DNA from: Escherichia coli | GTDB lineage: Bacteria; Pseudomonadota; Gammaproteobacteria; Enterobacterales; Enterobacteriaceae | Assembly (NCBI RefSeq): GCF_041248615.1 | Contig: NZ_CP158426.1 | DNA length: 64,000 nucleotides | Reading direction: 5' to 3' (one strand) | Part shown: one piece after another, positions 51,001 to 54,000 of the stretch | How positions within the stretch are numbered: position 1 is the first letter of the stretch | How the letters are laid out: every line of letters begins with the position of its first letter | Program-made: the position numbers

Positions 51001-54000
51001 TGGAAACAGAAACCAAGTCGCTCTGATATGTGGCTACAAGCCCATATCATCCCCTTGGATGAGGATTGTATACCTATACAAGGGCTAAAGTTTGAACTGA
51101 AATGGAAACCAGATCAGGATTCAGAACCTGATGACCCGATTTCTTACCCTAAAATAAATATTATTGCTTTCTATCATAACAAGAGGGTTTTCGCGGTAGA
51201 TACCTATCACTTTGACAAACACACGAATAGTTACAAGGTCGATCATCCGAAGTACCAAGATATCATTTACGGTGCTCACTACCATGTATACTATGAAGAA
51301 GCTGGATACTATAGTGATAGAATAGCGTTTCCAATCGAAGATGACATAAACCCAGATGACCTGGTAGGGTATTGGAATTACTTCTGTAAACATCTGAACA
51401 TAACTTACTCTGGGAGAATACCTTTACCGCTTGAAGATGAGTCGGGGCAAATGGGGTTTGGAATATGATGTGCTCAACAGTGATCTCACAACTAGGTTTC
51501 GAATGCCATCCAATAGGCAAGACCTTGAGAATTATCAGTCCATTCACTTACTGTGATGATGGAGAGCATGTCGGTGCCTTTATCCGTGAAGTCAATGGTA
51601 GGTATTTAGTTAGTGACAGATGCGATGCCTTAATGAATATGGAGGCAAGAGGGATCTCGCTTACCAAAAAACGACTTGATGAGATACGACAATTACTGCT
51701 TAAAGAAGGCGCAGAACTCAATGCTCGAGGAGAAATCATTGCTTGGGCAACAGAAAAGGATGTCGGTGCGATTACATCGAACATAATTAGAGCTGGTATA
51801 CTCGCATCAACTTTGTCGTTAGACTGGTATCAGCCAGTTCAAGCTGAAAAGTTTGAAAGTATGGTTATTGATTATCTATATCACACAGAGCTTAGAGACG
51901 CACTTTCTCTTCGTGAAAACGTATATGGCTTGAGTGGACATCAAATTACCGTCCCTGTAACAATAAAAACCGACATACCTAAATACGTTTTTACATCAAG
52001 CGTGAAACACGGAGGAAGCTGGAATAGTGCTTACTCATTGCTTGGGAAACTAATTGATCTTAAAGCTTCAAGTGAGGAGTATAACAACAGATTTGTTGTT
52101 ATAGACAGCGAAGCAATTGGTGATCAAATGCAACAACTCTCCTTACTCTTCCATGAATCAAGCCAAGTTCTACCATTCTCCAAAAGAGAGACTTGGGTTA
52201 AGAGACTTGCAGCATAATACAACCCGGCCTCAGCGCCGGGTTTTCTTTGCCTCACGTTCGCCCACCTAAAAACACATAACCAATTATATTTATTGAAAAA
52301 TAAATAGATGCAACCCACTAAACCACGCAATTCTGATCTCTCCTTACATCGCCGAGGCAATACATCCACGCTAAAAAACAACACTATTAAATACAAAGCG
52401 TTATAAAAAACCACGCCAACTTACAACAAATTGTATTGATCTTGTAAAGTACATATCGTACTATTTAACCGTCAGCAGGACGCTGGAAGCCAAATGGAAC
52501 AGACTGGCAGGCTCTTTAAACAACGTCGACTCTCGACTACGTGGCTGAAAAGCCAGATCACCCAACCACATAAGCTGTGGGATGCAATGCCGAAGCAACC
52601 GTCTCAGGAGGAGCTTCGAGATTGCATCGCCAAAGTTTATTCGGGAGGAATCCATGTCCAGAAAAACAGAATTTAAAGGCACCGCAGCTTCTCGCCGTAG
52701 AGCTCGTCGCGCAAATCTGCAAAGTCAGGAGGCGATCAGCTCCGACAAGCTACACAGGCCAACCCCTTCACGAGTGGTCTTGCAATGCAAGCTCAAACCA
52801 GCAATGAGAGCAGAAGTGATAACTCTGACAACGTTGACCAGAAAATATGAAGGTTCAACTTGTCTTCCGAACGTAGCTCTTTACGCGGCAGGCTACCGGA
52901 AATCAAAACAACTGACGGCGAGATGATAAATTCATTTGCTAATTACTTGTTTTTGCCATGCTTATCCTGAGCGATAAGTTCATCCATAAGGCTGTCTGCC
53001 TTCCCGGCAAACCTAATGTAGCACTCATGTCTATAGCTTTCAGGGATAACGAAACGGTCGGTATCAGGATATCCAACAGCAGGAGGCCTTCGAACGAGGA
53101 GTCCTTTTTTGAGCAATGAAATTGATTCATGAGCGCCCTTTTCCGTTTGTAGCTGGTTATTAGCGGCTACAGCGAATGCCAAATACGCTCTTTCTCCAAG
53201 AGTTAACGAATCAAACAAATCTTGCACATATTTTTCTTCTTTAGATTTGCGCTTCTGAGCAGCGAATACCTCAATTCTTTCAGTCACAGCGTGATAAGCG
53301 GAATTAACAACGCCGTTAAGCACATAGCTAACGCAAAACAACAGGATGTAATACATCCAGTAATGAGGAAGGATTTCTGGACTATGCAGGTTTATCCATT
53401 CTTTTACGCTTACCGGCATAACAATAATCAATATGATCAGGATGATTAGCATATGAATCAACTGTTTAAGTGTCATTCCTTGCAGGAAAAAATGCATTAG
53501 TTCCTGCCACCATGAGTTGTTCATCGGCGTTTCTCTTTTGCTCTCTGTAGGGGTGAATAGAGTTTATCCGATTTCTCGTTGTAGGGGTACACGAGAACCA
53601 CCGAGCCTGATGTGGTTAAAAGACAGGCACAATCTTTACTACCGCAATCCACTATTTAAGGTGATATATGGAAGAAGAATTTGAAGAGTTCGAAGAGCAT
53701 CCTCAAGATGTGATGGAACAATACCAGGACTATCCGTATGACTACGACTATTGATACAAATCAATGGTGTGGACAATTCAAACGATGCAATGGATGCAAG
53801 CTGCAATCGGAATGCATGGTTAAGCCTGAAGAAATGTTTCCTGTAATGGAAGATGGGAAATATGTCGATAAATGGGCAATACGAACGACGGCAATGATTG
53901 CCAGAGAACTTGGTAAACAGAACAACAAAGCTGCCTGATAGTGGCCTTTATTTTTGGCATAAATAACAGAATAAACACTGCACTGTGTATTCATTCCAAC

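What the first reader, a model, noticed from the sequence alone, without database searches (positions are those of the whole stretch)
52511..52555. Candidate nutL upstream of N with the same boxA/boxB architecture
ggctctttaa (boxA-like) followed ~22 nt later by hairpin tggct-gaaa-agcca, just downstream of the presumed pL/oL region (52380-52470), which carries ATATGTACTTT-like elements also present between cro and cI.
Basis: seen in the sequence. Interest (0 to 1): 0.3.

Follow-up and report, generated by a model that had tools for sequence, protein, structure and literature searches.

The report
nutL antitermination site before gene N
This is the ordinary "nutL" RNA signal of a lambda-like prophage, the site where the phage N protein boards RNA polymerase so that it reads through terminators, and the identical sequence is already annotated as such in the Shiga-toxin phage VT2-Sakai.

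Summary
It lies about 40 nt downstream of pL and 99 nt upstream of a 90-aa N gene (Pfam N_peptide, E=1.5e-32).

The interpretation as nutL is supported:
- **Second copy.** The same architecture occurs once more in the 64 kb, downstream of cro on the minus strand (nutR, 49874-49829). That is 2 matches against 0 expected.
- **Prior annotation.** The region is 100% identical to phages ev207 and ev017. The nut sequence is identical to the feature annotated "putative N-utilization leftward" in VT2-Sakai.
- **Loop follows N type.** In 80 loci encoding this N type, nutL (79/79) and nutR (74/74) carry a GAAA loop. In 80 loci with H-19B-type N, all carry GACAA.
- **Conservation.** boxB stems covary, and variation among relatives falls only in loops.

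One nuance is that boxB here is a true GNRA tetraloop rather than lambda's or P22's pentaloop. Its boxA matches the rrn consensus.

Verdict: already known, low interest. Function is inferred and was not tested.

The parts
52389..52463 (+). oL operator cluster: three 17-bp sites at 52389-52405, 52422-52438 and 52447-52463
   Evidence: Coordinates were transferred from the 'putative operator' features of VT2-Sakai AP000422 through alignment A1. ATATGTACTT is shared with the oR site at 50136-50145, 2 matches against 0.09 expected.
52436..52464 (+). pL promoter (-35 TTGATC at 52436-52441, -10 TACTAT at 52459-52464). The inferred transcription start is G at 52471.
   Evidence: This stretch corresponds to the 'putative major leftward promoter' of VT2-Sakai. 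The start is inferred from homology of GTCAGCAGGACGC to the lambda pL leader ATCAGCAGGACGC and to the P22 leader. The simple promoter scan did not list it, because each hexamer matches only 4 of 6.
52510..52518 (+). nutL boxA, GGCTCTTTA, an 8/9 match to the rrn boxA consensus UGCUCUUUA
   Evidence: Seen; the consensus is quoted from PMC2724277. The core GCTCTTTAAACAACG does not vary among 33 distinct leaders. The first base is G, T or A.
52525..52537 (+). Spacer hairpin GTCGA-CTC-TCGAC, followed by the conserved TACG at 52538-52541
   Evidence: Pair probabilities are 0.74-0.99. Relatives vary only in its loop: CTC, ACTC, ACAC, ATC, GCAC. Unrelated stems occupy the same place in nutR (GGAC/GTCC) and in H-19B nutL (GATTC/GAATC).
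52542..52555 (+). nutL boxB, TGGCT-GAAA-AGCCA: 5-bp stem, U-A closing pair, GNRA tetraloop. This is the inferred binding site for the arginine-rich motif of N.
   Evidence: Seen. It is unchanged in 79/79 loci that encode this N type. The stem covaries with nutR and with the H-19B sites, 100% paired, with 2 of 5 pairs showing double changes. The loop is GCAA in Shigella phage 75/02.
52581..52628 (+). Long hairpin in the N leader between nutL and the N ribosome-binding site
   Evidence: Inverted repeat I1 has 16-nt arms that are 88% complementary. The leader 52471-52670 folds with z = -3.7. Its role, analogous to the lambda RNase III site, is inferred only.
52654..52926 (+). Gene N, 90 aa, with the arginine-rich motif GTAASRRRARRANLQSQ at residues 9-25
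   Evidence: Pfam PF25694 N_peptide, E=1.5e-32, 112.5 bits. It is 98.9% identical to VT2-Sakai N and 41% to H-19B-type N. The motif aligns with lambda N DAQTRRRERRAEKQAQW. The Shine-Dalgarno sequence GGGAGGA precedes the ATG at 52654.
49829..49874 (-). nutR, the paired site downstream of cro: boxA CGCTCTTTG (49874-49866), spacer hairpin GGAC-ATTC-GTCC (49858-49847), TACG, and boxB TCGCT-GAAA-AGCGA (49842-49829)
   Evidence: Seen. It is identical to the 'putative N-utilization rightward' feature of VT2-Sakai. The GAAA loop is present in 74/74 loci with this N type.
54075..54132 (+). Two intrinsic-terminator-like hairpins with T runs in the pL operon (54075-54092 and 54113-54132). They are candidate targets of N-dependent readthrough.
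   Evidence: Pattern scan only. They lie between small ORFs and upstream of the RecT-like recombination genes.

Best explanation
The element is the nutL site of a lambdoid prophage that is 99.5% identical to Escherichia phage ev017.

Transcription from pL, starting at about 52471, produces an RNA with three elements in order:
- a boxA that matches the rrn consensus;
- a small spacer hairpin;
- a 14-nt boxB hairpin closed by U-A and capped by a GAAA tetraloop.

[quoted passage not shown] Host NusB/S10 bind boxA and NusA binds the spacer. The RNA-tethered complex rides on RNA polymerase and makes it read through terminators in the leftward operon. An equivalent nutR downstream of cro does the same for the rightward operon.

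Shown here: the anatomy, the position, the paired copy, the conservation, and the co-variation of boxB with the N type. Inferred from lambda, P22 and H-19B: N binding, the use of Nus factors, and terminator readthrough.
For: 1. Anatomy and position. pL/oL, then boxA, spacer hairpin, boxB, then N, all on the + strand. N is a Pfam N_peptide protein at E=1.5e-32.

2. Paired copy. The composite motif occurs only at the expected nutL and nutR positions, 2 found against 0 expected.

3. Prior annotation. The same sequence is annotated as putative nutL and nutR in VT2-Sakai. The 14-nt GAAA hairpin is annotated 'putative NutR - boxB' in Salmonella phage epsilon34.

4. Homology to tested sites. H-19B nutR, whose boxA, spacer hairpin and boxB were footprinted with N and NusA (PMC3526286), has the same spacer hairpin, TACG and boxB stem. 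It differs in the loop.

5. Loop follows N type.
- Sakai-type N goes with GAAA at nutL in 79/79 loci and at nutR in 74/74 loci.
- H-19B-type N goes with GACAA in 79/79 and 74/74 loci.
- The same cro 3' ends are found with either loop.
- Epsilon34 and 103203_sal5 share leader and spacer but differ together in boxB and in the N arginine-rich motif.

6. Stem covariation. boxB stems TGGCT/AGCCA, TCGCT/AGCGA, GCGCT/AGCGC and CGGCT/AGCCG are 100% paired. Two of five pairs carry double changes, and the slid controls reach at most 43% paired.

7. Conservation profile. Among 33 distinct leaders, 23 of 39 columns vary between the start site and boxA. Only 5 of 46 vary from the boxA core to the end of boxB, and all 5 are in loops. 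The mosaic junction with phage 75/02 lies at the 5' edge of boxA.

8. Match to lambda N requirements. The U-A closing pair, loop G1, purine 3 and an RRRxRR patch in N are all present (PMC12027372; alignment).
Against: - No experiment on this N subtype was found in the searchable literature. Function rests on homology.
- The free RNA does not favour boxB thermodynamically. The minimum-energy fold pairs boxA with the 3' half of boxB (-14.3 kcal/mol against -12.0 for the two-hairpin form), boxB pair probability is about 0.2, and the local fold z-score is only -0.9.
- The loop has 4 nt, not the 5 nt of the characterised lambda and P22 boxB.
- The 160 related loci are closely related to one another, so the association counts are not independent events.
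- Rfam has no nut model to test against.
- The downstream terminators are pattern matches only.
Confidence: 0.9

Rival explanations
1. The true N-binding boxB is the upstream spacer hairpin GTCGA-CTC-TCGAC (52525-52537), and the GAAA hairpin is accessory.
For: The spacer hairpin is the most stable local pairing in the ensemble, with pair probabilities of 0.74-0.99 against about 0.2 for boxB. It sits closer to boxA, at a lambda-like distance.
Against: Its loop varies freely in sequence and length among phages with identical N: CTC, ACTC, ACAC, ATC, GCAC. Its stem is unrelated between nutL and nutR of the same phage. It does not track N type, because H-19B nutR and this nutR share GGAC-ATTC-GTCC while their N proteins differ. 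From my own knowledge of Neely and Friedman 2000 (PMID 11123680, not held in the library), deleting the H-19B spacer dyad has little effect.
Confidence: 0.03
2. The hairpins are a transcription attenuator or terminator, or a Rho entry site, in the N leader rather than an antitermination site.
For: There are two consecutive hairpins in a 5' leader. In lambda and H-19B, nutR overlaps the rut site of tR1 (PMC3526286). The scan lists the reverse complement of the spacer hairpin as terminator-like on the minus strand.
Against: Neither hairpin is followed by a U run on the + strand; the following sequences are TACGTGG and GATCACC. The minus-strand scan hit is antisense to pL transcription. The cited paper states that nutL has no overlapping Rho-dependent terminator. 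The link between loop type and N type is not explained by this reading.
Confidence: 0.02
3. The stretch is coding sequence: a 60-aa ORF at 52494-52676, or a long 114-aa form of N starting at 52582 as annotated in AP005153. On this reading the motifs are incidental.
For: ORFs are listed at 52494-52676 and 52582-52926. The Stx1 phage record annotates the 114-aa N.
Against: One-base insertions and deletions in the spacer loop (3 nt against 4 nt) among close relatives would shift the frame of the 60-aa ORF. The 114-aa form starts downstream of boxB, so it does not cover the element. A strong Shine-Dalgarno sequence, GGGAGGA, precedes the ATG at 52654, and the Pfam model covers residues 1-90.
Confidence: 0.02
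4. It is a genuine nut site by descent but inactive in this copy, because the prophage is a relic.
For: The window is a chromosomal prophage, and nothing here demonstrates activity.
Against: The 701 nt around the site are 100% identical to isolated phages ev207, ev017, PhiR57_1 and PhiR63_2. About 70% of a 24-kb stretch is 99.5% identical to ev017. N, cI, cro, O and P are intact ORFs.
Confidence: 0.04

Closest known systems
VT2-Sakai / Stx2 phage 'putative N-utilization leftward' (GenBank AP000422, feature 9807-9847)
   Same: The sequence from the inferred pL start site to the N start codon differs at only one base, just before the ATG. boxA, spacer hairpin and boxB are base-for-base identical. 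N is 98.9% identical.
   Different: Only the surroundings differ. There are several operator substitutions, and the accessory genes between cI and pL are different. The GenBank feature stops 5 nt short of the 3' end of boxB.
Phage H-19B nutL and nutR (Neely and Friedman 2000, PMID 11123680; footprinting in PMC3526286)
   Same: Both have boxA, a spacer with dyad symmetry, TACG, then a 5-bp boxB closed by U-A. H-19B nutR has the same spacer hairpin GGAC-ATTC-GTCC and the same boxB stem TCGCT/AGCGA as this phage's nutR. The C-terminal part of N is shared.
   Different: The H-19B boxB loop is GACAA, 5 nt and P22-like; here it is GAAA, 4 nt. The N proteins are 41% identical and their arginine-rich motifs differ (NSRSRRRERLKAKAL against TAASRRRARRANLQSQ). 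H-19B nutL has no recognisable boxA and its nutR boxA is degenerate (GCTATTTT), whereas both boxA elements here are near consensus. From my own knowledge, H-19B N works without NusB/S10 and without boxA. Whether that holds here is unknown.
Phage lambda nutL and nutR
   Same: The order is pL, boxA, spacer, boxB, N. The boxB stem has 5 bp with a U-A closing pair, loop G1 and purine 3. The N motif aligns as xRRRxRRAxxQxQ. The pL leader start (A/G)TCAGCAGGACGC is conserved.
   Different: Lambda loops are the pentaloops GAAGA and GAAAA, which fold as GNRA with one base extruded (PMC12027372); here the loop is a plain tetraloop. The lambda spacer is 8-9 nt and unstructured; here it is 22 nt with a hairpin. 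Lambda boxA is CGCUCUUA and lacks the extra U of the rrn consensus, which is present here (PMC2724277). Lambda N Trp18 aligns with Glu here.
Salmonella phage epsilon34 nut sites (NC_011976, 'putative NutR - boxB')
   Same: boxB carries a GAAA tetraloop (nutL CGGCT-GAAA-AGCCG, nutR TCGCT-GAAA-AGCGA). There is a spacer hairpin followed by TACG. The N motif AAGRRRERRAALQ is of the same type.
   Different: N is only 39% identical overall and is 120 aa long. nutL has no clear boxA and its spacer stem is different (GATTCA/TGAATC). The host is Salmonella.
Phage P22 nutL
   Same: The leader from the start site to boxA is homologous (CCATCAGCAGGACGCTGGTAGCCAAACGGAA), and boxA is the consensus CGCTCTTTAA.
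   Different: The P22 boxB is GCGCT-GACAA-AGCGC, a pentaloop. The spacer is short with no hairpin. The arginine-rich motif of N (gp24) differs.

Membership tests
Lambdoid N-utilization (nut) site | Lies in the transcribed leader just downstream of an early promoter (pL) and on the same strand as the operon it controls | tested here: met
   boxA starts about 40 nt after the inferred start site of pL. The promoter and operators correspond to those annotated in VT2-Sakai, and the leader start is homologous to lambda and P22. The start site itself is inferred, not mapped.
Lambdoid N-utilization (nut) site | boxA element matching (C/U)GCUCUU(U)A, located 5' of boxB | tested here: met
   GGCTCTTTA matches 8 of 9 positions of the rrn consensus (consensus from PMC2724277). 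The core does not vary in 33 distinct leaders.
Lambdoid N-utilization (nut) site | boxB: a short hairpin with a GNRA-fold loop and a U-A closing pair | tested here: met
   TGGCT-GAAA-AGCCA folds at -6.3 kcal/mol on its own. Stem covariation gives 100% pairing, with 2 of 5 pairs showing double changes. The loop has 4 nt, not 5, which makes it a variant of the characterised lambda and P22 loops.
Lambdoid N-utilization (nut) site | A second site (nutR) of the same design downstream of cro | tested here: met
   49874-49829 on the minus strand has the same boxA, hairpin, TACG and boxB order. It is the only other match in 64 kb.
Lambdoid N-utilization (nut) site | A cognate N protein with an N-terminal arginine-rich motif encoded in the same phage | tested here: met
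   PF25694 at E=1.5e-32. The motif SRRRARRANLQSQ aligns with lambda TRRRERRAEKQAQ.
Lambdoid N-utilization (nut) site | boxB specificity matches the N type (co-variation of RNA and protein) | tested here: met
   The association between GAAA or GACAA and N type is perfect at both nut sites in 160 loci. The epsilon34 and sal5 pair shows a natural swap. The loci are related, so the number of independent events is small.
Lambdoid N-utilization (nut) site | Terminators downstream that are read through only with N | tested here: inconclusive
   Terminator-like hairpins on the + strand at 54075-54092 and 54113-54132 come from a pattern scan only.
Lambdoid N-utilization (nut) site | N binds boxB RNA, and N, nut and Nus factors together confer processive antitermination | not testable with these tools
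   This needs binding and reporter assays. No publication on this N subtype was found.
H-19B-type nut site (structured spacer) | [quoted passage not shown] | tested here: met
   GTCGA-CTC-TCGAC at 52525-52537. The stem is kept and the loop is free to vary.
H-19B-type nut site (structured spacer) | boxB with a GACAA pentaloop recognised by H-19B-type N | tested here: not met
   The loop is GAAA, and N is only 41% identical with a different arginine-rich motif.
HK022 put-type RNA antiterminator (no protein factor) | Two larger stem-loops act directly on RNA polymerase, and the phage has no N gene | tested here: not met
   An N gene is present directly downstream. The hairpins are 13-14 nt. The description of put sites is from my own knowledge.

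The most novel reading that the evidence does not exclude
This N/boxB pair, shared by VT2-Sakai-type coliphages and Salmonella phage epsilon34, may be a fourth recognition class that has not been characterised structurally. Three features define it. boxB is a plain GNRA tetraloop (GAAA, or GCAA in phage 75/02) with no extruded base. It is read by a lambda-like arginine-rich helix that lacks the Trp that stacks on the loop in lambda. It is combined with an rrn-consensus boxA and a structured spacer. If the extruded base matters for NusA engagement in lambda, as I recall from Legault et al. 1998 but did not verify here, this class would assemble its Nus complex differently.
Probability: 0.3. Interest if true: 0.3.

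Novelty: already known. Interest (0 to 1): 0.1.

Why it matters
It matters little beyond correct annotation. The site marks where early leftward gene expression of this prophage becomes dependent on N. It confirms that the immunity region is a complete VT2-Sakai-type module: oL/pL, nutL, N, and oR/pR, cro, nutR.

The one point of modest interest concerns specificity. Natural N/boxB pairs with a true GNRA tetraloop are widespread, and boxB is swapped together with the N arginine-rich motif as a tiny cassette inside otherwise identical leaders. That gives ready-made orthogonal peptide-RNA pairs and a clean natural specificity experiment.

Tried and rejected
- **Rfam.** A search of 49400-53600 at E up to 10 found no nut or boxB family, only chance hits.
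- **PDB.** A sequence search with N found no hit at E up to 10. The peptide entries are too short or too divergent.
- **Single-sequence folding.** The 71-nt and 81-nt nut regions gave non-significant z-scores (-0.9 and -1.35) and an alternative boxA:boxB pairing. Thermodynamics alone therefore neither supports nor locates boxB.
- **boxA/boxB alternative pairing.** I considered that complementarity between boxA and the 3' arm of boxB is a selected alternative structure, because nutL has GGCU/AGCC and nutR has CGCU/AGCG. I rejected it as unsupported. Relatives carry T or A at boxA position 1 without any change in boxB.
- **Operator consensus search.** A loose pattern with 3 mismatches was only marginally enriched, 17 found against 8.5 expected, and did not cleanly recover all operators.
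- **Locus collection.** The first collection with this N gave only relatives at 97% identity or more, so it was of little use for covariation. Diversity came from H-19B-type loci, phage 75/02, epsilon34, sal5, P22 and lambda.
- **Literature.** Searches for VT2-Sakai or Stx nut sites found nothing specific. Neely and Friedman 2000 is not held in the library.
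Full report
**What is in the sequence**

Reading 49500-53500 and listing ORFs shows a textbook lambdoid immunity region.
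- On the minus strand lie P, O, cII and a 71-aa Cro-like HTH protein (49885-50100).
- On the plus strand lies a cI repressor (HTH plus Peptidase_S24, 50215-50871).
- Two accessory genes follow, at 50911-52217.
- A strong intrinsic terminator follows at 52221-52242.
- An AT-rich control region follows.
- A 90-aa ORF at 52654-52926 then matches Pfam PF25694 'Transcriptional antitermination N peptide' over its whole length (E=1.5e-32).
- A sieB homologue lies on the minus strand just beyond.

- GGCTCTTTAA is at 52510-52519.
- The hairpin TGGCT-GAAA-AGCCA is at 52542-52555.
- The two are 22 nt apart.

**Is it more than chance?**

Taken singly, the parts are not unusual.
- A boxA-like 9-mer with one mismatch allowed is at chance level, 25 found against 25.2 expected.
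- Perfect 5-bp hairpins with GNRA loops are only mildly enriched, 9 against 4.2.

The composite is not chance.
- GCTCTTT-N(10-40)-GCTGAAAAGC occurs exactly twice in 64 kb, with none in 100 shuffles.
- A GNRA hairpin with a boxA core within 50 nt upstream occurs twice against 0.015 expected.
- The second copy lies on the minus strand at 49874-49829, immediately downstream of cro, where nutR belongs.
- It has the same order of parts: CGCTCTTTG, then GGAC-ATTC-GTCC, then TACG, then TCGCT-GAAA-AGCGA.

ATATGTACTT occurs only at 50136-50145 (+) and 52447-52456 (-), against 0.09 expected.

**Relatives and existing annotation**

The 701 nt around the site are 100% identical to Escherichia phages ev207, ev017, PhiR57_1 and PhiR63_2. 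They are 93.5% identical to VT2-Sakai and many other Stx phages. About 70% of a 24-kb stretch is 99.5% identical to ev017.

In VT2-Sakai (AP000422) the depositors annotated three operators, a 'putative major leftward promoter' and a 'putative N-utilization leftward' feature. Through alignment A1 these map as follows:
- operators to 52389-52405, 52422-52438 and 52447-52463;
- the promoter to 52436-52464;
- the nutL feature to 52510-52550.

From the inferred start site to the N start codon, the two sequences differ only at the base just before the ATG. The annotated nutR likewise coincides with the minus-strand copy. The element is therefore already described at the level of database annotation.

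The start of the leader, GTCAGCAGGACGC, is homologous to the start of the lambda pL transcript, ATCAGCAGGACGC, and to the P22 leader. This places the start site at about 52471, boxA at about +40 and boxB at +72 to +85. The placement is an inference.

**Link to experimentally studied sites**

H-19B (AF034975) is the nearest phage whose nut sites have been tested. Its nutR reads GCTATTTT, then GGAC-ATTC-GTCC, then TACG, then TCGCT-GACAA-AGCGA. That is the same spacer hairpin and boxB stem as the nutR here, with a different loop.

[quoted passage not shown] It reports protection of the spacer and boxB, but not boxA, by N with NusA/NusG. Its reference 31, Neely and Friedman 2000, is the source for the dyad-symmetric spacers and the reduced need for host factors. 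I could not read that paper, so what I say about it is from memory.

**Which hairpin is boxB, and does it follow N?**

I collected 80 loci encoding this N type and 80 encoding H-19B-type N, which is 41% identical.

| N type | nutL loop | nutR loop |
|---|---|---|
| Sakai-type (this window) | GAAA in 79/79 | GAAA in 74/74 |
| H-19B-type | GACAA in 79/79 | GACAA in 74/74 |

The loop does not follow the neighbouring cro gene, because the same cro 3' ends (…GCGGATCC, …CATAAGTAAC) are found joined to either loop type.

More distant phages give further support.
- Shigella phage 75/02 (N 84% identical) has GCAA at nutL and GAAA at nutR. Both are GNRA loops.
- Salmonella phage epsilon34 (N 39% identical, motif AAGRRRERRAALQ) has CGGCT-GAAA-AGCCG at nutL and TCGCT-GAAA-AGCGA at nutR. 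The latter is annotated 'putative NutR - boxB'.
- Phage 103203_sal5 shares its leader and spacer hairpin with epsilon34. It has an H-19B-like motif and a different boxB.

This last pair is a natural cassette swap of boxB together with the arginine-rich motif.

The spacer hairpin behaves differently. It keeps its stem, but its loop varies in sequence and length among phages with identical N (CTC, ACTC, ACAC, ATC, GCAC). It is also unrelated between nutL and nutR.

**Structure support**

On an alignment of 20 distinct nut sites, the boxB helix is paired in 100% of cells. Two of its five pairs show changes on both sides (U-A/G-C and C-G/G-C). Controls with the partner slid by 1-3 columns reach at most 43% pairing.

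Among 33 distinct leaders of this N type, 23 of 39 columns vary between the start site and boxA. Only 5 of 46 vary from the boxA core to the end of boxB, and all five lie in the two loops. Against phage 75/02, similarity begins exactly at boxA. boxA, boxB and N therefore travel as one module.

**Caveats**

- Single-sequence thermodynamics do not favour boxB. The minimum-energy fold pairs boxA with the 3' half of boxB: -14.3 against -12.0 kcal/mol at nutL, and -11.9 against -11.7 at nutR. The local z-scores are not significant.
- I considered whether this alternative pairing is selected. I found no support, because boxA position 1 changes without any compensation in boxB.
- The related loci are close relatives, so the counts overstate the number of independent events.
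- No publication on this N subtype was found.
- The downstream terminators at 54075-54132 are pattern matches only.

**Comparison with the known classes**

Lambda boxB is GCCCU-GAAGA/GAAAA-AGGGC. P22 and H-19B nutL have GCGCU-GACAA-AGCGC. Both are pentaloops that adopt a GNRA fold by extruding one base.

According to PMC12027372, lambda N needs four things:
- loop G1;
- a purine at loop position 3;
- the U-A closing pair;
- the arginine patch at residues 6-11.

All four are present here. The loop, however, is a plain tetraloop, and the residue that aligns with lambda Trp18 is Glu.

boxA here is GCUCUUUA. It carries the extra U of the rrn consensus that lambda lacks (PMC2724277). rrn boxA binds NusB:NusE about tenfold tighter than lambda boxA (PMC2800207). 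By contrast, H-19B nutL has no recognisable boxA.

The site therefore works like a lambda or H-19B nut site and belongs to that family. Within the family it is the GNRA-tetraloop variant.

**Verdict**

The element is already annotated in near-identical phages and is homologous to characterised sites. Interest is low. The residual novelty is that the tetraloop class of N/boxB pairs appears not to have been studied biochemically.

Noticed in passing
window 50911-51468 and 51465-52217 (+): Two overlapping genes sit between cI and the terminator, in the slot that rexAB occupies in lambda. They encode DUF6978-like and DUF1828 proteins with weak matches to the PADLOC candidate defence pair PDC-M24A (E=4.8e-4) and PDC-M24B (E=4.7e-10). 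VT2-Sakai carries different genes at this position. This may be a prophage-encoded defence cassette expressed together with cI.
   Followed up: partly
window 52471-52670 (+), arms 52581-52596 / 52613-52628: The N leader folds much better than shuffled sequence (-68.3 kcal/mol, z = -3.7). It has a long hairpin between nutL and the N ribosome-binding site. In the minimum-energy fold, the 5' end of the leader pairs with the N start region. The position is analogous to the RNase III site and the translational control region of the lambda N leader.
   Followed up: partly
window 52510-52555 (+) and 49874-49829 (-): boxA (GGCUCUUU or CGCUCUUU) is complementary to the 3' half of its own boxB (AAAAGCC or AAAAGCG). 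The free RNA is therefore predicted to prefer a boxA:boxB pairing over the boxB hairpin. Relatives with T or A at boxA position 1 show no compensating change, so selection for this pairing is not supported.
   Followed up: partly
L166 (epsilon34) 4250-4500 vs L167 (103203_sal5) 4250-4500: The two Salmonella phages have almost identical pL leaders and spacer hairpins. They differ in the roughly 15-nt boxB (CGGCT-GAAA-AGCCG against GCTC-CGTCAAC-GAGC) and, together with it, in the N arginine-rich motif. This is a natural cassette swap of RNA and peptide specificity.
   Followed up: partly
window 52430-52520 vs L164 (Shigella phage 75/02) 4275-4360: The mosaic junction between unrelated pL/operator sequence and near-identical sequence falls exactly at the 5' edge of boxA. 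The unit boxA-boxB-N is therefore exchanged as one module.
   Followed up: yes
window 54075-54092 and 54113-54132 (+): Two consecutive intrinsic-terminator-like hairpins with T runs lie in the leftward operon. They sit between small ORFs and upstream of the RecT-like recombination genes. They are candidate tL terminators that N would override.
   Followed up: no
window 52582-52926 vs 52654-52926 (+): Public records disagree on the start of N. AP005153 annotates a 114-aa form and AP000422 a 90-aa form. The Shine-Dalgarno sequence GGGAGGA before the ATG at 52654, and full-length coverage of the Pfam model by the 90-aa form, favour the short form.
   Followed up: partly
window 52943-53524 (-): A SieB superinfection-exclusion homologue (PF14163, E=9e-22) lies directly downstream of N in the opposite orientation, as in lambda and P22.
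   Followed up: no
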